64,000 bases of DNA from Magnetococcus sp. DMHC-6 (GCA_039908535.1 JAMOAW010000027.1:10705-74704); one strand, 5' to 3'; numbered from the stretch's first letter, positions 3,492 to 64,000 are shown. A program made the numbers and translations. Notes: generated from the sequence alone by a model not told the origin.

Positions 3492-3615
3492 TTTGTTTTC
3501 TTGTCTGGTTAGGTTGTGTGAACGGATGCGGTGGGTGTAGATTGCTACCCTTATAGATTTTCTGCTATATGTTACGTTTTATAAATTCAGTTTGCAAGTT
3601 TGCAGGGGAGAATTT

Positions 3616-3886
3616 ATACCAATTTGCGTTCAATAAGGTATTATTGGAGGGGTCCGGGAAGCGTCACGCTCCCCGGCGGGTTTGGAGGCAGAGCCTCCAA
3701 GGTCTTGTTTTTAATTTTTCCCATAGGCGTGATGTTTACGACAAAATTAAGACCTTGGGGGGCGGAGAACCGCCCCCCAACTCCCCCCACCCTTTTTTTT
3801 TAAATCTTAAAAAAAAGAGGGGGTCTGGGGATTCATCCCCCAGGGTTTTGTTTTTTATTTTTTACCCGCAGGGCATCATGTTCGAT
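3616..3886. repeat. Hairpin-repeat locus R3 (inverted outer module + core A-B-C + F)
   Basis: 3616-3748 is the reverse complement of the outer part of R10 (ataccaatttgcgttcaataaggtattattggagggg..ccggggagcgtgacgctccccgg..ttggaggcagagcctccaa). 3749-3850 is a near-perfect core. Lies in a divergent intergenic region. Confidence 0.9.
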
Positions 3887-7040: not shown

Positions 7041-7292
7041 TCTGGGTGGGCGGAGAACCGCCCCCCAGACCCCCTCTTTTTTTTAAGTCTTAAAAAAAAG
7101 AGGGGGTCTGGGGGATTCATCCCCCAGGGTTTTGATTTTGTAACCGTTCAGATAAAAAAATCAAAAACAAGACCTTGGGGGATTGCATCCCCCAACCCCC
7201 CTGCTATTTGAAGAAAGCAAAACCGAATTCAAAAGCAAAGTCAAAAGCAAAGTCAAACCCCTGGGGGCAATCCCCCAGACCCCTTTTTTTTA
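7041..7292. repeat. Hairpin-repeat locus R4 (core A-B-C followed by an E-D-C' element)
   Basis: Core at 7041-7135. 7166-7285 (aagaccttgggggattgcatcccccaa ... ctgggggcaatcccccag) is the reverse complement of the C'-D-E stretch seen in R5, R6 and R9. Confidence 0.9.
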
Positions 7293-7315
7293 TTAATATA
7301 TGAACGTTGGTCTCC

Positions 7316-7731: not shown

Positions 7732-8577
7732 ATGTCTCTTACAATTAATAGCAATGTGGCAGCCTTGAGTGCGCAACGTCATATGAATAATACGACAAAT
7801 GCGCTGCAAAAAGTCTATACCCGTCTCTCTTCTGGGTTGCGCGTAAATAGCGCGGCGGATGATGCGGCTGGACTCTCTATCTCCAATCGTATGACGGCGC
7901 AAATTCGTGGTATGAATCAGGCCGTTCGCAATGCCAACGATGCCATCTCAATGGTTCAGGTGGCGGAAGGTGCTTTGGATGAAACGACCAATGCCTTGCA
8001 ACGTATTCGGGAACTGGCGGTCCAGGCCTCGAACGGGACGTTGACCAGTACAGATCGGTCGGATCTTCAGAAAGAGGTGGATCAGTTGATTGCAGAAGTG
8101 GATCGGATTGCAACGACCACTGAGTTTAACAATCAAGCCATGTTGCAAGGAAGTATGTCGGCGGGTAGAACTTTTCAGATTGGTAACGACGCCAATCAAA
8201 CGATTCGGGTCTCTATTGGGGCGGTCACATCGACGGCTTTGGGACTGGCGACGGTTTCTATGGGTGCGGGTGGTGCCAGTGCTGGGGTGGCGATTTCACT
8301 TGCCGGGGCCGCTATTACCGCTATGGATAGTGCTTTGGATTCGGTCTCGGCCATTCGTTCGACATTGGGTGCGTTTCAAAACCGTTTTGAGGCAACGATT
8401 TCTAGCCTTACCAATATTTCAGAAAACACCTCTGCGGCCCAATCGCGCATTATGGATGCAGATATTGCCGCAGAAACGGCCAATTTGACCCGTTATTCCA
8501 TTCTGCAACAGGCGGGCGTGGCGGTTATGGCTCAGGCCAATCAGCAACCTCAAATTGCGTTACGGTTGCTCAGTTAA
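7732..8577 (+). CDS. fliC: Flagellin (short, 281 aa)
   Basis: Conserved flagellin N-terminus ([24 protein letters not shown]) and C-terminus (NRFEATI...[32 protein letters not shown]). Confidence 0.95.
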
Positions 8578-18567: not shown

Positions 18568-18595
18568 CAAAGGATTTTGTCACTAAATAAGAGGA
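18568..18595 (+). promoter_or_regulatory. Flagellin leader with two GGA motifs (CsrA-type)
   Basis: cAAAGGA at 18568-18574 and AAGAGGA at 18589-18595 (the SD). ATG at 18603. Confidence 0.4.
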
Positions 18596-18602
18596 TCGAA
18601 CC

Positions 18603-19433
18603 ATGCCGCTTTTTATTAATACCAATGTTGCTTCGTTAAATGCGCAGCGCAATTTGAACAAGTCAACCGGCGAACTGGGCAAAACTTTTGCTCGTTTGGC
18701 CTCTGGTCTTCGGATTAATTCGGCCAAAGACGACGCCGCTGGGATGGCCATTAGTACTCGTATGACTTCGCAGATTCGTGGATTGAGTCAGGCTTCTAGA
18801 AACGCCAATGATGGTATTTCCCTGATTCAGGTTGCGGACGGTGCTCTTGAAGAGACGACCAATGCCTTGCAAAGAATTCGTGAATTGGCGGTTCAGGCTG
18901 CGAATGGTACTTACAACTCTACCGACCGTGCCGATCTGCAAAAAGAGGTTGATCAACTTCTTTTTGAAGTGGATCGGATTTCCACAGACGTAGAGTTTAA
19001 CAACAAAAAATTGCTTTTGGGTACGAGTATTCGCAGTGTTGATTTTCAGATAGGCGATAAAGAAAATCAGACGATTGAAATCACGATCACCAGTTGTGAT
19101 ACGAGGGCTTTGCTTGGATTAACTAGCGCGAATGTGACTATTATCACAGCTTCTGATGCGGGGATGGCCTTGACGCAGTTGACTAAAGCTTTGGACAGTG
19201 TGACAACAATACGGGCCACCTTGGGTGCGGCGCAGAATCGTTTTGAAGCGGTGATCAATAATCTTTCGAACGTGGTGGAGAATATTTCAGCAGCTCGTTC
19301 GCGGATTGTGGATGCCGATATTGCCGCTGAAACGGCGACATTGACACGCAATGCCATTTTGCAACAGGCTGGAACAGCGGTTTTGGCTCAGGCCAATCAG
19401 CAGCCACAGTTGGCTTTGCAGTTGCTTGGCTAA
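18603..19433 (+). CDS. fliC: Flagellin (276 aa)
   Basis: Flagellin N- and C-terminal conserved blocks. Differs from the 281-aa pair in the central region. Confidence 0.95.
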   Translation: MPLFINTNVASLNAQRNLNKSTGELGKTFARLASGLRINSAKDDAAGMAISTRMTSQIRGLSQASRNANDGISLIQVADGALEETTNALQRIRELAVQAANGTYNSTDRADLQKEVDQLLFEVDRISTDVEFNNKKLLLGTSIRSVDFQIGDKENQTIEITITSCDTRALLGLTSANVTIITASDAGMALTQLTKALDSVTTIRATLGAAQNRFEAVINNLSNVVENISAARSRIVDADIAAETATLTRNAILQQAGTAVLAQANQQPQLALQLLG

Positions 19434-22554: not shown

Positions 22555-22750
22555 GATATAAATAAAAATAAAAAATTAAGACCTTGGGGGCGGAGAACCG
22601 CTCCCAACACCCCCTTTTTTTTTTTTATTAAAAAAAAAAAGGGGTCTGGGGGATTGCCCCCAGGGTTTTGCTTTTGCTTTTGACCTCGGTTTTGCTTCCT
22701 TCAAAAAGCAGGGGGATTGGGGGATGCAATCCCCCAAGGTCTTGACTTTG
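22552..22750. repeat. Hairpin-repeat locus R6 (A-B then C'-D-E)
   Basis: aagaccttgggggcggagaaccgctcccaa..T13..A11..ggggtctgggggattgcccccaggg..ttgacctcggttttgcttccttcaaaaagcaggggg attgggggatgcaatcccccaaggtcttgactttg. Overlaps the 3' end of the hslR ORF. Confidence 0.9.
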
Positions 22751-23140
22751 TAAACAGAGTCGTCTGCGCTCCCGTTTGGTTGGACGCGGACCACCAGGAA
22801 TGGGAGCTGTGCCGAGAATAGCAACTATTTGGCGTTTTTTCTCGCTCTCCTCCTGACGCTTTTTTTGACTCTGGGCCGTCTCTTGATATAAAAGGATCGC
22901 TTCTCGCGCTGGTCCACGTTGTTCGGAAACGCCAGTGACATCCACAATCCATTCTATGGATTCTTTGCCAATCTTTAGTTGATCCCCTATTTTTAGTGTG
23001 TGTCCAGGTTTGACGCGGGCCCCATTTAAATGCACCCGCCCGCCAGTGACAGCTTGGGCGGCCAATGCCCGTGTTTTAAAAAAACGTGCGGCCCAAAGCC
23101 ATTTGTCGATTCGAACCGTCATAAAAGAAGGGGGGGTCAT
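22628..23140 (-). CDS. hslR: S4-domain ribosome-associated heat-shock protein Hsp15, with a repeat-encoded C-terminal tail
   Basis: [38 protein letters not shown] is the Hsp15 pattern. Residues after ~130 are translated from repeat R6. Confidence 0.8.
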
Positions 23141-26517: not shown

Positions 26518-27012
26518 ATGACATTACAACAAGGGGATCTTGACCAAATTGTTCAATATATTAAACCGCAATTTATCCTCTGGATGTCAGATCGGGTGTT
26601 GGAAAAACCCCATGAACTTTATGAAATTGAATGGCGTGAGCGCATTATTCGGGTTGAGGAGGCGTTAAAACATCAGCGTGAATTGATGCAGCAGGGGTTC
26701 GCAATGATGGGAAAACAGTTGGAACTGGAGGATAAACGGTTAGAGCAGGTGGATAAACGGTTAGAGCAGGTGGATAAACGGTTAGCTTTGCTACAATCTG
26801 AGATGGATAAACGGTTAGAGCAGGTGGATAAACGGTTAGCTTTGCTACAGTCTGAGATGGATAAACGGTTTGAGCAGGTGGATAAACGGTTTGAGCAGGT
26901 GGATAAACGGTTAGTTTTGCTACAATCTGAGATGGATAAACGGTTTGAGCAGGTGGATAAACGGTTAGTTTTGCTACAATCTGAGATGGATAAACGGTTC
27001 ATAAACGTTTAG
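26518..27012 (+). CDS. Heptad tandem-repeat (DKR[LF]EQV) coiled-coil protein, apparently frameshifted from its C-terminal membrane anchor
   Basis: Good RBS (aaaggagg) and ATG. Tandem 21- and 33-nt units from 26731. The frame starting at 27003 continues KRLEFLTQRIDRFMIWSFGITLALSGIVITALKILR* to 27113. Confidence 0.7.
   Translation: MTLQQGDLDQIVQYIKPQFILWMSDRVLEKPHELYEIEWRERIIRVEEALKHQRELMQQGFAMMGKQLELEDKRLEQVDKRLEQVDKRLALLQSEMDKRLEQVDKRLALLQSEMDKRFEQVDKRFEQVDKRLVLLQSEMDKRFEQVDKRLVLLQSEMDKRFINV
26731..27000 (+). repeat. In-frame tandem repeats (21-nt gataaacggttagagcaggtg and 33-nt gataaacggttagctttgctacaatctgagatg units)
   Basis: Read directly from the sequence. There is a higher-order duplication of the DKRLEQV/DKRLALLQSEM pattern with L->F and A->V variants. 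Confidence 0.95.
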
Positions 27013-27183
27013 AGTTTCTTACGCAACGGATTGATCGTTTTATGATTTGGTCCTTTGGTATAACGCTCGCTTTGTCGGGTATCGTCATCACAGCACTAAA
27101 AATTTTAAGATAATATTTTTTGAAATCTTTTATCGTTGGATATGTATATGAATGTCAATTGGCAAGGGGTGAGTGGTTCTGAA

Positions 27184-30723: not shown

Positions 30724-30862
30724 TACCTTGGGGGGGCGGAGAACCGCCCCCCAATCCCCCCCACCCTTTTTTTTTAATTCTTAAAAAAAAGAGGGGGTCT
30801 GGGGGATTCATCCCCCAGGGTTTTGCGTTTGATCTTTTGCCCGGAAGGGCATCATGTTCTAA
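30724..30862. repeat. Hairpin-repeat locus R7 (core A-B-C + F)
   Basis: Near-consensus core between convergent purB and the receiver gene. Confidence 0.9.
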
Positions 30863-36172: not shown

Positions 36173-36190
36173 GATGGGTTACATTTTAAG

Positions 36191-36430
36191 GTATCGGAAA
36201 AATAAAAAATCAAGACCTTGGGGGCGGAGAACCGCCCCCAACACCCCCACCCTTTTTTTTTATTAAAAGAAAAAAGGGGGCTGGGGGAGTGCCCCCAGGT
36301 TTTTTTTTTGACTTTTTACCCGAAGGGCATCATGTATGAACCAAGAGCTTGGGGGGGCGAATCTCCTCTGAAACAACCGGGGGCCCCCCAATCCCCCCTT
36401 TTTTTTGCTTAACTTATTTAAAAAAAAGAG
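36191..36430. repeat. Hairpin-repeat locus R8 (core A-B-C + F + second degenerate A-B)
   Basis: gtatcggaaaaataaaaaatcaagaccttgggggcggagaaccgcccccaa ... ttacccgaagggcatcatgtatg ... cttgggggggcga..ccccccaatcccccc-T9..A8gagg. Confidence 0.9.
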
Positions 36431-39834: not shown

Positions 39835-40026
39835 GCACCACCACACTTAACCGTGGTCATCTGTTTTTTGATTGATTAAATGCCCCCAGGGTTTGGTTTT
39901 TGTTTTTGATCTTGCTTTTGACCTCGGTTTTGCTTTTTTCAAAAAGCAGGGGGATTGGGGGATGCAATCCCCCAAGGTCTTGACTTTGCTTTTTGTTCAG
40001 GCACTCGTTAATCATCCACACTTAAA
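39835..40026. mobile_element. Second copy of the TIR element seen at 9641-9864 (locus R9), right end truncated
   Basis: GGCACCACCACACTTAACCGTGGTcatctgttttttgatt ... gttcaggcactcgttaatcatccacacttaaa. Collinear with 9641-9852, with an internal deletion. The right TIR stops after cttaaa. Confidence 0.75.
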
Positions 40027-47148: not shown

Positions 47149-47673
47149 ATGGCTTTACATGTGAGTAGATCAAAAAACAGAGTTGTTGAGAACACCAATT
47201 TGGCTAGGATTATTCGGGCTGTTTTGGTCTTTACTGTTTTGTTGTTGGTTGTTGGTGCCAATCTACCCAAAGAGATTGCCGTGCAAGTGGGGGTAGAGAG
47301 CAATTTTTTATTGGCGGCGTTGGCGGCCATTGTTGCGGTTTGGACTGTGCAGCATATTCATATGTTGTTGGTATCGCTAGTGATTTTTTTATCACTTGTG
47401 GCCAATTTTTCCAATTTTACCAATGCCCCCATTCCAGTAAATCACAGTATGGCCGTTTTGGCCCTGATTGTTTTGGTGGGTGTTTGGATGGCAAAAAATG
47501 TTAGTAAAATTATTGCACTTCTTTTTCTTACCCTGGGCATCGGTCTTCTGTTGCCGCCAGAATACACCACGGTTCTGCACCTTGATTTTGGAATTTTACT
47601 CCCTCTCTTCATTGCCTTGTTGGCCACCCCTATTTTAATATTTCTTTTCAGTAGACGTCAGCGTCTTTCTTGA
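47149..47673 (+). CDS. Integral membrane protein, unknown function
   Basis: 174 aa with about five hydrophobic segments. No motif recognised. Confidence 0.45.
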   Translation: MALHVSRSKNRVVENTNLARIIRAVLVFTVLLLVVGANLPKEIAVQVGVESNFLLAALAAIVAVWTVQHIHMLLVSLVIFLSLVANFSNFTNAPIPVNHSMAVLALIVLVGVWMAKNVSKIIALLFLTLGIGLLLPPEYTTVLHLDFGILLPLFIALLATPILIFLFSRRQRLS

Positions 47674-47696
47674 AAAAGCATGTTATCGAGGTATCT

Positions 47697-48880
47697 TTAG
47701 GAAAGTATGTTTTGCAATTTATCAAGAATATAGGCGAAACGTCCACCTGGTGAAACATTGACTTTAAAAGTCTCTCTAACACGGGAATCAATCTCATCCA
47801 TACGAAAAATTTCTCGAGTCTGTCCGCCAAGATGAATCAGGGGCATAACGACTGCCATTGGGTGATGTTGACGCAGGATGTCCAACTCTGGTACCTTTCC
47901 CTATCGAAAACCTCATCCGCCCCAATTTTGGCTCAATTTCCAGCATTTTTGGAGATGGAGAATTAGATTTTGCTAGACATCGAGGCAGATTTTCGAGAGA
48001 ATCAGAAACAATATTGAGGTTTCATCGCTCCAAATAGCCCAATTTTTTTCTGAAGCGGGCAGTGGGCATTGGAACCTTGTCTTTTGGATGTGTACTTTGA
48101 AAACTGAAACTGGCTTTAAATCAGGCAGCTTTCCGCAGATATTGATGTTGCGCCAGTCGTAATTTGTCTCTGAGCCGATTTTATGGACAGATGAAGACTC
48201 CCTGAATTCATTCTTTTCTGGCGTATCGTTGATGTATCGGAAAAATAAAAATCAAGACCTTGGGGGGCGGAGAACCGCCCCCCAATTCCCCCCACCCTTT
48301 TTTTTTAATTCTTAAAAAAAAGAGGGGGTCTGGGGGGATTCATCCCCCAGGGTTTGGCCTTTGATTTTTTTTTGCCCGAAGGGCATCATGTTCATGTCGT
48401 AAACATCACGCCTATGGGAAAAATTAAAAGCAAGACCTTGGGGGGGTGCACCCCCCAACCCCCCTGCTTGGGGGCTACAAAGTCAAAAACAAAGTCAAAA
48501 GCAACACCTTGGAGGCTCTGCCTCCAAACCTCCGCCGGGGAGCGTGACGCTCCCCGGACCCCTCCAATAATACTTTATTGAACGCAAATTGGTATTAATC
48601 AATTCATCCAAAAGACGCTCTAAGCCCGGTATTGTATATTTGGCATGACTTTGATCTCCAGCCAAAACTTCAGCATCTAATACCAATCGCAACCCAGACA
48701 CCAAATATGAATGATAAGTGTGAGAAGGATGGCCTGGTTTTTTGGAATTATAACCAACCTCTGCTCCTTCCTGTTTGCCATATAAATGTTTGACTGTGGT
48801 GTCTATATCCAATATCCACGATGTGTTAAGAAGAGGAAATATGCAATTTTTTGGTGGTACTCTAAATTCCAGTGTTTTTT
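47697..48880 (-). pseudogene. Decayed DDE transposase (IS4/IS1380-superfamily-like) split by repeat locus R10
   Basis: 48596-48880 encodes ..WILDIDTTVKHLYGKQEGAEVGYNSKKPGHPSHTYHSYLVSGLRLVLDAEVLAGDQSHAKYTIPGLERLLDEL, the first-D region of such transposases. The frame resumes below R10 (INDTPEKNEF...GKLPDLKPVSVFKVHIQKTRFQ) with stops and frame changes. Confidence 0.5.
48234..48595. repeat. Hairpin-repeat locus R10 (core A-B-C + F + E-D-like + outer module)
   Basis: gtatcggaaaaataaaaatcaagaccttggggggcggagaaccgccccccaa ... ccggggagcgtgacgctccccgg acccctccaataatactttattgaacgcaaattggtat. Lies inside the transposase remnant. Confidence 0.9.
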
Positions 48881-48917
48881 AAATAAAATTAAAAAAAACA
48901 GTCAGCACCCGGTACTC

Positions 48918-49829
48918 TTAGGCAATCGGTTTCCAATTCCGAGCCAAAGCTTGAGCCTGGGAGAGTTGAGTGGGGTTTAGGGCATCGGTGAGATGTTCTC
49001 GACGATCTATGGCCGTGGCATGGCCTTGCTCGGCGGCGAGATGAAACCACATGTAGGCTTGAATGTTGTCGGGTGCAACCCCTTTGCCTTTGGTGTAGAG
49101 GGTGCCTAACATGTTTTGGGCATCGGCATAGCCACGATCGGCGGCTTGACGCAACCAGTTGGCCGCTTCTTTGTCGTCTTTGGGAACCCCTTTGCCCTCC
49201 ATGAAGATTAAAGCAACACTGTATTGAGCCATGGGGAGACCTTGGTCGGCGGCCATGCGAAACCATTTGAGAGCCTCTTGATCGGCATCGGCAAGGTCAT
49301 GATCGTTTTCATAGATCATGCCCAGATTATATTGCGCCTTGGCAAAACCTTGACTGGCGGCTAGTTTAAACCATTTAATGGCTTCTGAATCGTTTCTTGG
49401 TACCCCTTTGCCACGACGATAGAGCATCCCTAAATTAAATTGGGCGTTGGGATACCCCTTTTGGGCCGCCAGTTGATACCATTTTTTTGCCTCGTTGCCA
49501 TCTTTGGGAACACCGTTGCCGGTATCATATAGGACACCTAAGTTAAATTGCGCACTGATCAAGCCCTGTTCAGCGGCTAGCTTAAACCATTTAACGGCCT
49601 CTTTGTCGTTTCTTGGAACCCCCTTGCCTTGCGAATACATCATCCCTAAGGAAAATTGCGCCTTGGCTAAGCCTTGTTTGGCCGCTTGACGAAACCATTT
49701 CATCGCTTCTAAATCGTCTTTGTTGACCCCTTTGCCTTGAAGGTAGGTCATGCCAAGAAGAAACTGGGCACTGGCATCCCCTCCTTGGGTCGCGGTTTGA
49801 ATTAATTTTTCAAGCTCTTTTGGGGGCAT
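48918..49829 (-). CDS. Sel1-repeat (SLR/TPR-like) protein
   Basis: About eight ~36-aa repeats of the form A.KWF..AA.QG...AQ..LG.MY..GKGVP.D..EA. Confidence 0.85.
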   Translation of the reverse strand: MPPKELEKLIQTATQGGDASAQFLLGMTYLQGKGVNKDDLEAMKWFRQAAKQGLAKAQFSLGMMYSQGKGVPRNDKEAVKWFKLAAEQGLISAQFNLGVLYDTGNGVPKDGNEAKKWYQLAAQKGYPNAQFNLGMLYRRGKGVPRNDSEAIKWFKLAASQGFAKAQYNLGMIYENDHDLADADQEALKWFRMAADQGLPMAQYSVALIFMEGKGVPKDDKEAANWLRQAADRGYADAQNMLGTLYTKGKGVAPDNIQAYMWFHLAAEQGHATAIDRREHLTDALNPTQLSQAQALARNWKPIA

Positions 49830-54428: not shown

Positions 54429-55055
54429 TCAGAACAATTTAAACATTTTGCCAAGCATACCTGTAATCGATATGGCCGAAAACAGAATGGCAAAAGTAAA
54501 AAGTCGAATGGTGAGCATGCGATTTTCCCGCAAACCGGCATCAATTTTAACATCAATGCGTTCCAATAATTTGTCCAATTTGTTACCAACTTCTTTAATT
54601 TCAACATGCATTTCTTCGAAGCGTTTGTCCACCTGTTCGAAGCGTTTGTCCACCTGTTCGAAGCGTTTGTCCACCTGTTCGAATCGTGTATTTATATCGA
54701 GACGGTTTTTATTAAAATTTTCTTTTGTATCTGTCCTCAAATCATCAATACGTTTATCGATCTGTTCGAAGCGATTATCTACCTGTTCAAACCGTGTGTT
54801 TATATCGAGACGGCTTTTATTAAAGTTTTCTTTTGTATCTGTTCTCAGTCCATCAATATGTTTATCTAATTGTTCAAATTGATATTTTGTATCTTTTTTG
54901 AACTCGTTAAGTTCGGTACGGACATGAAGGATATCATGTTGCAGGTGGTCGAAGCGAACTTCGAGATATTTGGTTGTTGGAACAAAATTAGCGAGCAACA
55001 TATCGATTGTTTTTTTGTCTAAAGGCAAGCTAATTGGATTTTCCTGTTCAGTCAT
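54429..55055 (-). CDS. Heptad tandem-repeat (DKRFEQV) coiled-coil protein with C-terminal membrane anchor
   Basis: 208 aa. RFEQVDKRFEQVDKRFEQVDKRFEEM and a duplicated ~39-aa unit. C-terminal TM LTIRLFTFAILFSAISITGMLG. Paralogous in architecture to 26518-27113. Confidence 0.7.
   Translation of the reverse strand: MTEQENPISLPLDKKTIDMLLANFVPTTKYLEVRFDHLQHDILHVRTELNEFKKDTKYQFEQLDKHIDGLRTDTKENFNKSRLDINTRFEQVDNRFEQIDKRIDDLRTDTKENFNKNRLDINTRFEQVDKRFEQVDKRFEQVDKRFEEMHVEIKEVGNKLDKLLERIDVKIDAGLRENRMLTIRLFTFAILFSAISITGMLGKMFKLF
54615..54677 (-). repeat. Three exact 21-nt tandem units (ttcgaagcgtttgtccacctg on the + strand)
   Basis: Read directly from the sequence. Encodes (QVDKRFE)x3. Confidence 0.95.
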
Positions 55056-60031: not shown

Positions 60032-63000
60032 ATGAACCAATTTCACACGTCTTTACACAGTGTTGCTGACAAAACTTCAGGTGATTTTGGGGTTGAGTTC
60101 AGCCCTGTTTTGATTTCTGGACACGCCTTGCACGCGGTTCGATCGATTGAAGGGGAAATTTCTGCCAAACCAGGTGTGTATGAAATTGAATTACCTACGG
60201 AACGGAGCGAATTCATTAAATTTGTCACCGAGTGGGAGAGCAAGCACCGTTTGGCCGCGCTTAAAGGGGCGGCCTTTTCTGTATTGGTATTACCTTTAGC
60301 GGCAACTTTGGCTGGTTGCGGCGGCGGTGGCGGCGGTGGTGGTGGTACTTCTACTGAGTTGGGTTGGGTGGTGGACGGACCGATTAAAGATGCCACGGTC
60401 TGGCGTGATAGCGATGGGGACGGCGTGCAGGATTCTGGCGAAAAATGGACCACGAGCAATGCCGATGGCAGTTTTGATACCGCTGCTGTTACTGGTGCAG
60501 GGGTGCTGCGCTCTAAGGGTGGGACAGATGTCGTTACGGGTCAAAGTTTTGCCGACATTGTTTTATCCGCGCCCGATGGATCTACCACAATTAGCCCTGT
60601 TACCACTTTAATTCAGGAGTATGCCCTGGCCAATGGGGTGGATGCAACAACGGCGCAGGCTTCGGTAAAAACACTTCTTGGCATTTCAACCACCACTGAT
60701 CTTTTGTCCTATAATCCTACCGATAATACCGCTTTAGGCAATCAAGTGATTGCTGAAGCGCAAAAGATCATCGCGGCGACTCGGACGTTAAACAGTTTTG
60801 GTGTCAATATTCAGACGGCCTTTTCGAGTGTGATCACTCAACTATCTACGGCAACCGATGCGACGCAGGCCGATTTTTCGAATGCTCTCACTATTCAAAC
60901 CATGCTGGCAAACAATGGGATTACCACCCCTGATGCCGTGACTCTTGCGCAAACAATCGCGACATCCATCCAAAAAATTGCCACGGCAGTGGTGCAAAAT
61001 GGTTATAATTCTACGGCGGCAAAGGATACTGTTACGGAAGCCGTATCTGTGTCTAATACCGCTGCGGGTGTGTTGGTGACGGCCGCTGATTTGGCTGCTG
61101 GAACCTACAGTCAAGTCACAGGCAGTGTGAATGTCACGGTGACAGCTCCAGCTACGGTTGCGCAATTGGCCGCCATTGATGCCAAGACTACCGGGTCGCT
61201 CTCTTACGCTTCCATCGTTGATACGGCGGCCCATTTGGTTGGCAACAGTTATGTCACTGGAAATGTCAATGTGACGGTGACGGATACCACTACGGTTTCT
61301 GTGATCTCCACGATTGATGCACAGACGGCGGGTAAGTTGACCTATAATCTCTCCGATACCGCTGCAAATTTGGCGGGGGCTTCGGCGGCGATTGGCAATG
61401 GGGCAGGGAGCATGACGGCCACAACGACGGCCAACGCTGCCCAAGCTAAGGTGATAGAAGCTTTTACCAATAGCGGCTTAACCACCTATGATGTTTCCGA
61501 TACGGCCACGGCATTGGCTGCCAGTACTGGTTTAAATAGTGCGGTGAAAATTACCGCAACCACCTTGGCCACAGGAGCCGAGGCGACTGTTTTGGCCAAT
61601 TTTGCCAAAGCGGTGGTGTATAGTATTTCGGATACTGCCACCAATGTCGCGAACAGCAGCGGTTTGAATAAAGCGGTTCATATTACGGCGACCACAGCGG
61701 CGTCTGTGCAACAAGCGACGGCAATCGTGAATGCCGCCAATAGCGGGACCAAAACGTATGATTTAAGCGACACAGCGGAGAATTTGGCTGGTGCGGTTTT
61801 GGCGGTAGGAAATGGAGCCGGGACCATTTCGGCGACGACGACAGCGACGGTTTTGCAAGCGACGGCGATTGAAGCGTTTACCAACAGTGGTTTAACCATC
61901 TATAATATTATTGATACAGCTGAGAGTTTGGCGACCTCTTCGAATGCGGTTTTGACTTTGGCGGGGACGGTTACCGCAAGTACGGTCGCCACGGCTGCGC
62001 AAGCCAGTATTTTGGCTGGATTTACCAAGGAAGTGGTGTACAATATTTCTGATACGGCCACGGCATTGGCTGCCAGTACGGGTTTAGACGAAGCGGTGAA
62101 CATTACTGCAACCACAGCGGCTACGGTCGCGGAAGCCAACGTTATTGTTTTGGCTAACAATACGGGAACCAATATTTACAATTTGAGCGATACCGCATCG
62201 AATTTGGCGGCCGCCAGTTCAGCGGTTGGCAATGGGGCTGGGACCATTACCGCGACGACTTCGGTGACGGTTGCCCAAGCGGCGGCGATTGAGGCGTTTA
62301 GTAACAGCGGAGTCAATGCCTACGCCATTGCTGACACAGCGAGCCATTTGGCGGCTGCGACCAATGCGGTTTTGTCTTTGGGGTCCACGGTCACGGCGAC
62401 TGATTTGGCCACTGGAGCTGAGGCCACTATTTTGGCGAGTTTTGCCAAGCCTGTCGTCTATAGTGTTTCAGATACGGTCACCAATTTACTGGCCAGCAGC
62501 GGTTTGAATGAGGCGGTCAATGTGACGGCGACTACGCCGGTAACGTTGCAACAAGCGGCAGCACTTGAGGCGTTTAGTAACAGCGGAATCAATACGTATG
62601 CTATTGCTGATACAGTGAGTCATTTGATAGCTTCGACCGATGCGATTTTGTCTTTGGGGAGCACGGTTACGGCGACCGATTTGGCCACTGGAGCCGAGGC
62701 CACCCTTTTGGCGAGTTTTGTCAAGCCGGTGGTGTATAGTGTTTCGGACAGTGCCGCCAATTTAGCGGCCAGCAGTGGTTTGAACGAGGCGGTCCATATT
62801 ACGGCGACCACTGCGGCGACCGTGCAACAAGCGACGACGATTGTCAATGCCACCAATAGCGGGAGCAATACCTATCATTTAAGCGATACAGCGGAAAATT
62901 TAGCTGGGGCATCTTTAGCGGTAGGGAATGGTGCGGGGAGTATTACGGCCACAACGACGGCCAATGTTGCCCAGGCCACAGCCATAGATGCTTTTACCAA

Positions 63001-64000
63001 CAGCGGAACCAATACCTATTATATTATTGATACAGCAGACAAATTGGTACTCACAACTAATGCAATTTTAGACCAGGCGGTTACCGTCACGGTCAGTGGA
63101 CCGCCGGCAACGGCGGCTCAAGCCTCTATTTTGGCTGCTTTTACCAAACCGGTGGTTTTTACTGTTTCCGATACTATTGCCAACATGGAGACAAGTACTG
63201 GTTTGGGTGAAGCGGTTTCGGTCACCGTTGTGGACAGTGCGAATCATATCACGGCGGCTGATTTTATGGCCGGCAATTTGGCCTTGGTGACTCTGTTGAC
63301 GGTAAGTGATAACGCGGATGTCACCCTATCCGTAGACGAATTAAATCGACTCACGGTGACCACCACAGGCACCATTCATTTAGCGGATACGGCAGCCAAA
63401 ATCAATGCGGTGGATTTGACCACATTAAAATTTGCCCAGGTGACCACCTTGGAGGCCACAGATGGGGGAACTATTGTTTTAACTGTCGACGAGATGAATC
63501 GTTTTGCCGTCCTGGACACGGTATCTGATACAGCGGCAAACATTAATGCGACCGATTTTACCACGGGCCACATGGCCAACGTGACCTCTTTGACGGTGAG
63601 TGATGGTGGTGACATTATTTTGAGCATTGCCGAATTGAGCCGTTTGACCATCACCACCACTGGTGTGGTTATTGTGTCGGATACGGCAGAAAATATTAAT
63701 GCGGCTGATTTTACCTCTGGAAATTTGGCTCAGGCCGTTGTGTTGGATGTGAGTGATGGAGGTGCTATTCATATAAGTATCTCTGAATTGACGCATTTCG
63801 CCTATGATCTAATAAATGGTTATAGTACGTTGGATGTCGTAGATACTCCGACCAACTTGTTGGCAGAAAAGACAAATATTGAAAATTTGTATGTAGATGG
63901 ACGTGTGAGTTCATTGACTGCAACTGTTTTTGCAACAGCAACAGAAGCGGATACTTTGGCCGATTTTAGTGTTCCTGTGCAATATAGTATTTCGGATACT
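60032..64000 (+). CDS. Giant repetitive surface lipoprotein / adhesin-like protein (5' partial, continues past the window end)
   Basis: I translated the frame from the ATG at 60032 and found no stop through 64000. The ORF track omits it, probably because it has no stop. Internal lipoprotein signal MAALKGAAFSVLVLPLAATLAGC if started at the TTG at 60251. Ca-binding-like DSDGDGVQD. More than 20 modules carrying the [YF]x[IVL]SDTAxNL motif. Confidence 0.8.
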   Translation, partial: MNQFHTSLHSVADKTSGDFGVEFSPVLISGHALHAVRSIEGEISAKPGVYEIELPTERSEFIKFVTEWESKHRLAALKGAAFSVLVLPLAATLAGCGGGGGGGGGTSTELGWVVDGPIKDATVWRDSDGDGVQDSGEKWTTSNADGSFDTAAVTGAGVLRSKGGTDVVTGQSFADIVLSAPDGSTTISPVTTLIQEYALANGVDATTAQASVKTLLGISTTTDLLSYNPTDNTALGNQVIAEAQKIIAATRTLNSFGVNIQTAFSSVITQLSTATDATQADFSNALTIQTMLANNGITTPDAVTLAQTIATSIQKIATAVVQNGYNSTAAKDTVTEAVSVSNTAAGVLVTAADLAAGTYSQVTGSVNVTVTAPATVAQLAAIDAKTTGSLSYASIVDTAAHLVGNSYVTGNVNVTVTDTTTVSVISTIDAQTAGKLTYNLSDTAANLAGASAAIGNGAGSMTATTTANAAQAKVIEAFTNSGLTTYDVSDTATALAASTGLNSAVKITATTLATGAEATVLANFAKAVVYSISDTATNVANSSGLNKAVHITATTAASVQQATAIVNAANSGTKTYDLSDTAENLAGAVLAVGNGAGTISATTTATVLQATAIEAFTNSGLTIYNIIDTAESLATSSNAVLTLAGTVTASTVATAAQASILAGFTKEVVYNISDTATALAASTGLDEAVNITATTAATVAEANVIVLANNTGTNIYNLSDTASNLAAASSAVGNGAGTITATTSVTVAQAAAIEAFSNSGVNAYAIADTASHLAAATNAVLSLGSTVTATDLATGAEATILASFAKPVVYSVSDTVTNLLASSGLNEAVNVTATTPVTLQQAAALEAFSNSGINTYAIADTVSHLIASTDAILSLGSTVTATDLATGAEATLLASFVKPVVYSVSDSAANLAASSGLNEAVHITATTAATVQQATTIVNATNSGSNTYHLSDTAENLAGASLAVGNGAGSITATTTANVAQATAIDAFTNSGTNTYYIIDTADKLVLTTNAILDQAVTVTVSGPPATAAQASILAAFTKPVVFTVSDTIANMETSTGLGEAVSVTVVDSANHITAADFMAGNLALVTLLTVSDNADVTLSVDELNRLTVTTTGTIHLADTAAKINAVDLTTLKFAQVTTLEATDGGTIVLTVDEMNRFAVLDTVSDTAANINATDFTTGHMANVTSLTVSDGGDIILSIAELSRLTITTTGVVIVSDTAENINAADFTSGNLAQAVVLDVSDGGAIHISISELTHFAYDLINGYSTLDVVDTPTNLLAEKTNIENLYVDGRVSSLTATVFATATEADTLADFSVPVQYSISDT
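61200..63240 (+). repeat. Type-I protein modules (44-48 aa; xYx[IL]SDTAxNLA...ITATT...QA..I.AF.NSG), including a 276-nt tandem duplication (62291-62566 and 62567-62842)
   Basis: Read from the translation. Boundaries are approximate. Confidence 0.8.
63240..63800 (+). repeat. Type-II protein modules (47-51 aa; INAxDFTxGxxAxVTxLTVSDGGxIxLSIxELxRL...SDTAxN)
   Basis: Read from the translation, about four copies. Boundaries are approximate. Confidence 0.75.

What the first reader, a model, noticed from the sequence alone, without database searches (positions are those of the whole stretch)
47697..48880. Composite repeat R10 interrupts a DDE transposase pseudogene
On the minus strand, 48880-48596 encodes a recognisable transposase segment (..WILDIDTTVKHLYGKQEGAEVGYNSKKPGHPSHTYHSYLVSGLRLVLDAEVLAGDQSHAKY..LLDEL). 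The reading frame then runs straight into the 362-bp repeat array (48595-48234). Below the array, transposase-like sequence resumes (..GKLPDLKPVSVFKVHIQKTRFQ.. then ..HLGGQTREIFRMDEIDSRVRETF..) with stops and frame changes. This is the only place in the window where the repeat sits inside former coding sequence. It argues that the repeats insert actively rather than being conserved regulatory DNA. It also marks 47.7-48.9 kb as a graveyard of mobile DNA.
Basis: partly seen in the sequence, partly recalled or inferred. Interest (0 to 1): 0.6.

Follow-up and report, generated by a model that had tools for sequence, protein, structure and literature searches.

The report
Transposase relic beside hairpin-repeat array
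A short dead fragment of a jumping-gene enzyme lies directly against a cluster of hairpin repeats between two ordinary genes of a magnetotactic coccus, but the enzyme gene does not resume on the other side of the repeats, so this is common genomic debris and not a gene split by a repeat insertion.

Summary
The window comes from the Magnetococcus sp. DMHC-6 MAG. Minus strand 48848-48600 encodes 83 codons that match residues about 155-236 of about 520-aa IS1380-like DDE transposases (tblastn E 1e-17 to 1e-30; 128 bits against an HMM of ten full-length relatives). The adjacent 48232-48599 is a real mosaic of a dispersed hairpin-repeat family. Transposase similarity stops at 48600, and the outer end of the repeat, defined by a second copy at 3612-3718, starts at 48595-48599.

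The central claim fails. No frame of 47400-48233 shows transposase similarity (every piece scores 0.3 bits or less). The same HMM recovers a frameshifted pseudogene of this family end to end in a control locus. The "stops and frame changes" below the array are what random sequence gives (P = 0.16).

The repeats resemble REP/BIME elements. About 27 units lie in 10 intergenic clusters, with 7-bp G-rich stems that carry compensatory changes. The family is shared with other Magnetococcales MAGs.

Best reading: a doubly truncated IS relic whose 3' break is a repeat terminus. This gives modest support for repeat-mediated rearrangement. It is not a simple insertion. The finding is ordinary and of low interest.

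The parts
48600..48848 (-). Internal relic of an IS1380-like DDE transposase. It has 83 codons corresponding to residues about 155-236 of about 520. It holds the WILDxDTT / GxQEGA / YNxxKPGxPSH block with the first catalytic Asp region. It lacks the RGDxGF block and everything downstream, and it lacks the N-terminal 150 or so residues.
   Evidence: tblastn of 10 full-length relatives. HMM: 128.6 bits over positions 156-240. Alignment with the fragments P0002-P0011 shows what should follow LLDxL. The apparent upstream extension with P0021 runs through stops into the intact Sel1 gene and is spurious.
48495..48812 (-). Annotated 105-aa ORF (H7832_06825). It is the transposase relic read on into repeat module C. 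It is an ORF-calling by-product, not a functional transposase.
48232..48393 (+). Repeat module A. Two hairpin units in inverted orientation (hairpins at 48260-48285 and 48330-48350) surround a T9..A8 palindrome, followed by a GCCCGAAGGGCATCATGTTC tail. It is 96% identical to 2189-2339 and 80-93% identical to the copies near 3743, 30725 and 36191.
48395..48504 (+). Repeat module B. It holds one hairpin unit (48438-48458) plus a 12-nt ACAAAGTCAAAA x2.3 spacer. Related copies lie at 7156-7250, 9713-9820(-), 22674-22749(-), 39912-39994(-) and 3694-3743(-).
48491..48599 (+). Repeat module C. It holds a hairpin unit with the TTGGAGG..CCTCCAA stem (48509-48527), a second hairpin CCGGGGAGCG-TGA-CGCTCCCCGG (48535-48557) and an AT-rich outer end. 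It is 92% identical to 3612-3718 on the opposite strand. Its outer terminus (48595-48599) abuts the last transposase codon (48600).
47697..48231 (.). Unassigned spacer DNA between the array and the membrane-protein gene. It contains a 62-aa annotated ORF (47697-47885, minus strand, H7832_06820). It shows no transposase similarity and no statistically supported trace of former coding. Only a sub-threshold hint to SLOG cluster 3 / ThcA appears, at about 47790-47900.
47149..47673 (+). Left flanking gene: a conserved 174-aa membrane protein, the partner of MazG. It is 46% identical to the gene that follows mazG in another Magnetococcales MAG.
48918..49829 (-). Right flanking gene: an intact Sel1-repeat protein that is convergent with the membrane-protein gene. 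Its stop codon lies 70 nt from the start of the relic.

Best explanation
The 1.24-kb spacer between two convergent housekeeping genes (membrane-protein gene 47149-47673, plus strand; Sel1 gene 48918-49829, minus strand) holds three unrelated things side by side. The first is an 83-codon internal relic of an IS1380-like DDE transposase, truncated at both ends. The second is a 365-bp mosaic (modules A, B, C; five hairpins) of a REP/BIME-like hairpin-repeat family. That family populates intergenic DNA throughout this genome and related Magnetococcales. The third is about 535 bp of unassignable DNA.

The array does not split a gene whose two halves survive. The relic simply ends at the outer terminus of module C.

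The most likely history is inferred, not shown. An IS copy landed in this spacer. A repeat module, or a whole array, then became joined by its natural end to codon about 237 of the transposase gene. The rest of the IS was lost, either in the same event (a terminus-adjacent deletion) or later through recombination between repeat copies. A separate deletion removed the 5' part.

What is shown: the identity and extent of the relic, the membership and modular structure of the array, the coincidence of the two boundaries, and the absence of the rest of the gene.

What is inferred: the order of events, and that the repeats act as DNA/RNA hairpins. Possible roles are terminator-like or mRNA-stabilising elements, or substrates of an unidentified mobilising enzyme.
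For: Relic: (E down to 7e-30; 128.6 bits; relatives pass the Pfam DDE_Tnp_1_4 and DDE_Tnp_1 cut-offs; NCBIfam IS1380 is the best model). The rest of the gene is absent: with a positive control, where the same HMM finds HMM positions 40-507 across seven frameshifted pieces in L028. The boundaries coincide: one search shows identity with the 3612 copy beginning at 48595-48599 and the last transposase codon ending at 48600. Repeat family: 10 clusters, all intergenic or at the 3' ends of genes. About 27 units, 25 of them with perfect 7-bp stems, show compensatory changes (pair 1 is T-A x16 against C-G x9; pair 5 is G-C against A-T). The array folds strongly (z = -6.9 as RNA, -7.2 as DNA). Module A is inverted relative to B-C in the 3612-3886 array, so the arrangement is mosaic. 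The family is present in YQC-5, nDJH8bin2, HCHbin5 and other Magnetococcales MAGs. It is absent from the syntenic flg-mazG loci of two more distant relatives. No intact copy of this IS appears among DMHC-6 proteins in the 5.8-billion-protein collection; the best non-self hit is 63% identical.
Against: The outer terminus of module C is defined by only one other copy in the window. Copies in other species stop at about 48567. No target-site duplication, and no enzyme that could mobilise the repeats, was found. The order of events cannot be recovered from one junction. The sequence is a short-read MAG contig, and both IS copies and dense repeats are classic sites of mis-assembly, so the juxtaposition itself has not been verified. 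The relic's 5' boundary (about 48850) touches no recognisable repeat, so at least one truncation is unrelated to the repeats.
Confidence: 0.6

Rival explanations
1. The composite repeat inserted into an IS transposase gene, and both halves of the gene survive, the distal half degraded by stops and frameshifts at 47697-48233.
For: The relic's frame runs straight into the array. The junction lies at a repeat terminus.
Against: No transposase similarity in any frame below the array, while the proximal 83 codons are very well preserved at 1.5 bits per position. The same HMM detects a heavily frameshifted pseudogene over its full length in L028. The number of stops and the length of the open run below the array match random expectation. 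Only 535 bp are available, where about 850 bp of gene would be missing.
Confidence: 0.03
2. The array was there first, as in the other convergent spacers. An IS inserted into it or beside it, as many IS elements target REP sequences. Ordinary deletions unrelated to the repeats then eroded the IS, so the coincidence of the break with the repeat terminus is accidental.
For: Arrays of this family sit in at least four other convergent spacers of the window. REPs are documented IS targets (PMC1525189). The relic's 5' truncation clearly does not involve a repeat. Truncated relics of this transposase family occur elsewhere without any repeats (L026).
Against: An IS inserted into an array should meet it through its terminal inverted repeat, not through codon 237 of its gene. 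A random deletion endpoint falling within 0-4 nt of the natural module terminus is improbable. IS1380-type elements are not among the known REP-targeting families (own knowledge).
Confidence: 0.2
3. Assembly artefact. The MAG contig is mis-joined inside the repeat array, so the transposase relic with the Sel1/Tex side and the mazG/membrane-gene side are not neighbours in the real chromosome.
For: The source is a metagenome-assembled genome. The array shares 90-96% identical modules of 100-150 nt with other loci. Synteny beyond the membrane-protein gene is not conserved in relatives, so nothing independently confirms the join.
Against: The modules differ by enough substitutions for unique assembly paths. 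Even if the contig is chimeric, the relic-to-module-C junction lies on one side of any such join and stays valid. There is no direct sign of chimerism in composition.
Confidence: 0.1
4. 47697-47900 is the C-terminal relic of a SLOG-domain (Thoeris type III ThcA-like) defence gene. The spacer would then be a decayed mobile/defence islet, not IS debris alone.
For: Pfam LD_cluster3 E = 1.4e-3 (18.8 bits) and NCBIfam ThcA E = 1.2e-3 (18.5 bits) hit the same 40 or so residues at the matching C-terminal profile positions. Codon-usage score for this frame is +0.13, similar to real genes.
Against: Both scores are below the curated cut-offs (25 and 110 bits). The match does not extend when upstream frames are added. 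PADLOC finds nothing. No homologues appear among 5.8 billion proteins. An equally weak hit falls on a TPR region instead. The AlphaFold model is unusable at pLDDT 50.6.
Confidence: 0.1

Closest known systems
REP sequences and BIMEs (bacterial interspersed mosaic elements) of Enterobacteria, Pseudomonas and Stenotrophomonas (PMC2817692, PMC3116915)
   Same: Short G+C-rich imperfect palindromes. They are extragenic, at high density, clustered in both orientations into mosaic arrays, and keep their stems through compensatory changes. Module A is an inverted doublet of two units, like a REPIN.
   Different: The units lack the GT(A/G)G head next to the palindrome. No RAYT was found in the window. 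The units carry a conserved AAAATCAAGACC leader and a CCCCC(T)n trailer. The host is a Magnetococcales lineage, for which my literature searches found no description of such repeats.
BOX elements of Streptococcus pneumoniae and Correia/NEMIS elements of Neisseria (own knowledge)
   Same: Modular (A/B/C-type) or inverted-repeat miniature elements, 100-350 bp long, that lie next to genes and fold into stable stem-loops.
   Different: No sequence relationship. No terminal TA duplication or transposase-matching inverted repeats could be shown here.
IS1380 family insertion sequences (NCBIfam NF033539; Pfam DDE_Tnp_1_4)
   Same: The relic aligns to the N-terminal part of the catalytic core, profile positions 130-200 of 419. 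Its full-length relatives match the IS1380 model over nearly its whole length.
   Different: The relatives score 110-147 bits, below the 180-bit cut-off, and are about 100 aa longer, so this is a distant IS1380-like clade. The window copy retains only about 16% of the protein and no recognisable ends.
IS elements nested in REP arrays (IS1397, ISPpu9/10 and others; PMC1525189, PMC12288879)
   Same: Transposase sequence lies physically adjacent to a REP-like array in an intergenic spacer.
   Different: In those cases an intact IS is flanked on both sides by the split REP and joined through its own ends. Here an internal gene fragment meets an intact repeat terminus on one side only.

Membership tests
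DDE transposase, IS1380-like (Pfam PF13701 DDE_Tnp_1_4 / NCBIfam NF033539) | Significant match to the family profile above the curated cut-off | tested here: not met
   The relic alone scores PF13701 14.7 bits (cut-off 34.7) and NF033539 16.2 bits (cut-off 180). Full-length relatives pass PF13701 and PF01609 but not NF033539 (110-147 bits against 180). Homology to those relatives is itself unambiguous. The relic therefore derives from a member of the DDE_Tnp_1_4 superfamily, a distant IS1380-like clade.
DDE transposase, IS1380-like (Pfam PF13701 DDE_Tnp_1_4 / NCBIfam NF033539) | Complete D-D-E catalytic core | tested here: not met
   Only HMM positions 156-240 are present. The RGDxGF block that follows LLDxL in relatives and all C-terminal regions are missing.
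Insertion sequence (as an element) | Terminal inverted repeats and target-site duplication | not testable with these tools
   No intact copy close enough for DNA alignment was found. The best non-self protein is 63% identical. The genome-contig scan found no relative.
REP / BIME | Short imperfect palindrome whose stem is kept through compensatory changes | tested here: met
   25 of 27 units have a perfect 7-bp stem. Pair 1 is T-A x16 against C-G x9, pair 5 is G-C against A-T, and pairs 6 and 7 are changed on both sides in the copy at 915.
REP / BIME | Extragenic location and high copy number | tested here: met
   All 10 clusters lie between ORFs or overlap only their 3' ends. About 27 units occur in 64 kb. 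The genome-wide number was not measured.
REP / BIME | Units clustered in both orientations into mosaic arrays | tested here: met
   The focal array has units in the order + - + +. Module A is an inverted doublet, and A is flipped relative to B-C in the array at 3612-3886.
REP / BIME (RAYT-associated class, PMC2817692) | GT(A/G)G head immediately 5' of the palindrome | tested here: not met
   Units are preceded by AAGACC or AAAACC, not GTAG or GTGG. The definition was taken from PMC2817692.
REP / BIME (RAYT-associated class, PMC2817692) | A cognate RAYT (IS200/IS605-like Y1 transposase) gene flanked by inverted REPs | tested here: inconclusive
   The 20 ORFs of the window scanned with Pfam, including those flanked by arrays, are housekeeping or glycosylation genes, and none is a Y1 transposase. 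The rest of the genome could not be searched.
MITE | Terminal inverted repeats matching an autonomous IS, plus target-site duplications | tested here: inconclusive
   Module A has inverted ends, which are the two hairpin units. No duplication is visible at the flanks of five aligned copies, and no parent IS is known.
SLOG cluster 3 / Thoeris III ThcA (for 47697-47900) | Profile match above the curated cut-off over the domain | tested here: not met
   14-19 bits against cut-offs of 25 and 110. Only about 40 residues match, with no extension upstream. PADLOC is negative.

The most novel reading that the evidence does not exclude
The G-rich hairpin units would be a still-active, non-autonomous mobile family specific to one branch of the Magnetococcales. 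They lack the GTAG head, so something other than a classical RAYT would mobilise them. On this reading the 48599/48600 junction is a fossil of one such element inserting into coding DNA and deleting what lay beside it. The family would then be a new REPIN-like system in a deep-branching proteobacterial lineage.
Probability: 0.2. Interest if true: 0.45.

Novelty: new member of a known kind. Interest (0 to 1): 0.2.

Why it matters
The practical value is mainly for annotation. H7832_06825 is a transposase relic fused to repeat sequence and should be marked as a pseudogene. The spacer should not be read as an interrupted IS.

The wider point of modest interest is that freshwater Magnetococcus-type genomes carry a dense hairpin-repeat family. 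It is conserved across species, resembles REP/BIME elements, and does not appear to have been described. These repeats can confound MAG assembly and ORF calling. At 22628-22750, for example, an array supplies the C-terminus of an S4-domain ORF.

One precise junction between a repeat terminus and the interior of a gene hints that the family rearranges DNA. It does not prove this.

Tried and rejected
(1) Looking for the rest of the transposase. tblastn with word size 2 at E<=10 and an unfiltered six-frame hmmsearch found nothing. The method was validated on L028.

(2) Reconstructing a frameshifted pseudogene below the array. Four hand-built reconstructions were tested against Pfam and NCBIfam and none improved the score.

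(3) The SLOG/ThcA hint stays sub-threshold. A word-index search found only the protein itself. PDB sequence search found no hits. A plasmid tblastn hit (E = 0.04) lands in a TPR region of a multihaem cytochrome protein and is treated as chance. The AlphaFold single-sequence model has pLDDT 50.6 and is unusable, so no fold search was run.

(4) Testing for former coding below the array. A Markov simulation gave P = 0.16 and P = 0.38. Codon scores were equivocal.

(5) Searching for an intact IS copy. The search for related loci on genome contigs found no relative, and DMHC-6 itself is apparently not in that collection. The look-up of encoding contigs for P0001 found nothing on record.

(6) Synteny. 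The nearest mazG orthologues are only 55-59% identical. Gene order is kept through the membrane-protein gene and then diverges, so the ancestral state of the spacer could not be recovered.

(7) Looking for a repeat module at the relic's 5' side. Only low-complexity A/T matches were found.

(8) Rfam returned no family anywhere in the window.

(9) The apparent extension of P0021 into the Sel1 gene is spurious.

(10) A literature search for REPs in Magnetococcus found nothing.

Full report
Source and setting. Two small ORFs of the region are exact or near-exact matches to hypothetical proteins H7832_06825 and H7832_06820 of the metagenome-assembled genome Magnetococcus sp. DMHC-6. The mazG gene just upstream is 100% identical to that MAG's protein. 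The finding lies in a 1,244-bp spacer between two convergent genes. One is a 174-aa membrane protein (47149-47673, plus strand), which also follows mazG in another Magnetococcales genome. The other is an intact Sel1-repeat protein (48918-49829, minus strand), followed by Tex, topoisomerase and an SNF2 helicase. This is core chromosome, next to a flagellar gene cluster.

The transposase fragment is real. The minus-strand frame reads ..NCIFPLLNTSWILDIDTTVKHLYGKQEGAEVGYNSKKPGHPSHTYHSYLVSGLRLVLDAEVLAGDQSHAKYTIPGLERLLDEL. A word-index search found relatives at 59-67% identity, several carrying Pfam DDE_Tnp_1_4. An exhaustive profile search found 2,448 relatives, with full-length members of about 516-555 aa. 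Ten full-length members each hit the window only at 48600-48851, covering their residues about 155-238, with E from 1e-17 to 7e-30. An HMM of the ten gives 128.6 bits over positions 156-240. These relatives pass the Pfam cut-offs for DDE_Tnp_1_4 and DDE_Tnp_1. Their best NCBIfam model is IS1380, but below its cut-off (110-147 against 180 bits). I therefore call the family IS1380-like. The relic covers about 16% of the protein. It holds the first catalytic Asp block but not the RGDxGF block that follows LLDxL in every relative. One apparent upstream extension (P0021) runs through two stop codons into the intact Sel1 gene and is spurious.

The repeat array is real and modular. BLAST of the array against the window finds related sequence at ten places (about 900, 2200, 3650-3880, 7050-7300, 9550-9820, 22560-22750, 30730-30860, 36190-36430, 39880-39995 and here). 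All ten lie between ORFs or overlap only their 3' ends. The array resolves into three modules.
- Module A (48232/48240-48393) is 96% identical to 2189-2339.
- Module B is 48395-48504.
- Module C (48491-48599) is 92% identical to 3612-3718 on the other strand.
In the 3612-3886 array the order is C-B'-A with A flipped relative to the focal array, so the composite is a mosaic and not one rigid unit.

The elementary unit is AAAA(T/G)CAAGACC followed by a 7-bp G-rich stem, a variable loop and a CCCCC(T)n trailer. I count about 27 units in 64 kb, 25 of them with perfect stems. Stems are kept through changes on both sides: T-A against C-G at the basal pair, G-C against A-T at pair 5, and two double changes in the copy at 915. 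The array folds far better than shuffled controls (z = -6.9 as RNA, -7.2 as DNA). No Rfam family matches anywhere in the window.

The same hairpin and module A occur in several other Magnetococcales MAGs (YQC-5, nDJH8bin2, HCHbin5, an Umea bin and ERP019367_co2_107), at up to 88% identity over 138 nt. They are absent from the syntenic flg-mazG loci of two more distant relatives, including the site orthologous to the 39.9-kb array.

The junction. An alignment of the focal locus with the 3612 copy shows near-perfect identity starting at ATACCAATTTGCG (48595), possibly three bases earlier (48599). Outward of that point identity is at the random level. The last codon with transposase homology (Leu of LLDEL) ends at 48600. 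The break in the gene therefore coincides with the natural end of a repeat module to within 0-4 nt.

The gene does not resume. In a six-frame search of 47400-49100 with HMMER filters off, every piece other than the relic scores 0.3 bits or less. tblastn at E<=10 with word size 2 gives nothing in 47697-48233. Pfam, NCBIfam and PADLOC scans of every frame piece give no transposase. As a positive control, the same HMM applied to locus L028 recovers a badly frameshifted pseudogene of this family as seven pieces spanning HMM positions 40-507. The method would have seen a decayed distal half. The preserved half is in excellent condition (1.5 bits per position), so a sister half decayed beyond recognition is implausible. 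The region's best frame has 3 stops in 182 codons and a 90-codon open run, which simulated sequence of the same composition reaches with P = 0.16 and P = 0.38.

What the lower 535 bp is remains open. The 62-aa ORF region gives sub-threshold hits to SLOG cluster 3 (18.8 bits) and to Thoeris type III ThcA (18.5 bits) at matching C-terminal profile positions. The hit does not extend. It has no support from PADLOC, the protein collection or PDB. An equally weak hit to a TPR region competes with it. A single-sequence structure prediction was useless. I treat it as unassigned.

Interpretation. The relic is truncated at both ends, and the 3' break is a repeat terminus. The 5' break, 70 nt from the Sel1 stop codon, touches no recognisable repeat. 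The simplest history is as follows. An IS1380-like element once sat in this spacer. A repeat module was joined by its own end to the interior of the transposase gene. The remainder was lost, either at once or later through recombination between repeat copies. No intact copy of the IS is visible among the MAG's proteins. Strong signs point to constraint on the units: stem covariation, intergenic placement and conservation across species. That is the usual double picture for REP/BIME and REPIN elements (PMC2817692, PMC3116915).

Two alternatives remain. The array may have been there first, with the IS arriving beside it; REPs are known IS targets (PMC1525189). Or the MAG contig may be mis-joined inside the array. 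Neither can be excluded without reads or related genomes.

Comparison and novelty. The array works like and looks like a BIME made of REP-type hairpins, and module A is an inverted doublet like a REPIN. It fails the GT(A/G)G-head criterion of RAYT-associated REPs. No RAYT was found among the 20 window ORFs scanned. I therefore describe it as REP/BIME-like, not as a member of that class. The transposase relic is an ordinary pseudogene fragment of a known superfamily. Overall this is a new member of known kinds, of low general interest. Its value is in correcting the annotation and in flagging an undescribed repeat family in Magnetococcales.

Noticed in passing
window 22628-22750 (ORF 22628-23140, minus strand): An S4-domain (Hsp15-like) ORF reads about 41 codons past its conserved ..PTKRERRRL end into a repeat array (..[36 protein letters not shown]). 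This is a second place where the repeats overlap coding sequence. The stops of ORFs 69-914 and 1063-2190 also fall inside the left edge of arrays.
   Followed up: partly
window 47790-47900, minus strand: Sub-threshold similarity of the 62-aa ORF H7832_06820 to SLOG cluster 3 (PF18180) and to Thoeris type III ThcA. It may be a relic of a defence gene, or it may be chance.
   Followed up: partly
window 7732-8577, 8691-9536; related copies near 15111-17620 and 18588-19433: Tandem and dispersed flagellin paralogues (Flagellin_N + Flagellin_C) bracketed by repeat arrays. Upstream lies a sugar-modification gene set (DegT aminotransferase, epimerase/dehydratase, methyltransferase, glycosyltransferase) that looks like a flagellin glycosylation island.
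   Followed up: partly
window 61340-63036: Long tandem repeats with periods of 420 and 276 nt at 60-80% identity. This is probably a repetitive protein-coding region and was not examined.
   Followed up: no
window 54615-54858 and 26676-27041: In-frame short-period tandem repeats (21/108 nt and 54 nt) inside ORFs 54429-55055 and 26518-27012. Neither ORF has a Pfam assignment where checked.
   Followed up: no
L006 7893-7916 (contig CAYGZL010000159.1, labelled Anaerolineaceae): This contig carries the Magnetococcales-type hairpin together with its ACCCCCACCC trailer. It may be a mis-binned Magnetococcales contig or a case of horizontal spread of the unit.
   Followed up: no
L028 3646-5235 and L026 153-764: Other genomes hold decayed copies of the same transposase family. 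L028 has a full-length frameshifted pseudogene. L026 has a relic truncated right after the RGDCGFGN block. Most hits in the first protein search were also fragments. This IS clade is often seen as debris.
   Followed up: partly
window 39880-39995 versus L001 877-1007: The orthologous TamB/CsrA-FlgN spacer carries a repeat array in DMHC-6 but none in the Magnetococcales MAG GCA_015232395.1. Arrays have therefore been gained or lost at specific sites since these lineages split.
   Followed up: partly
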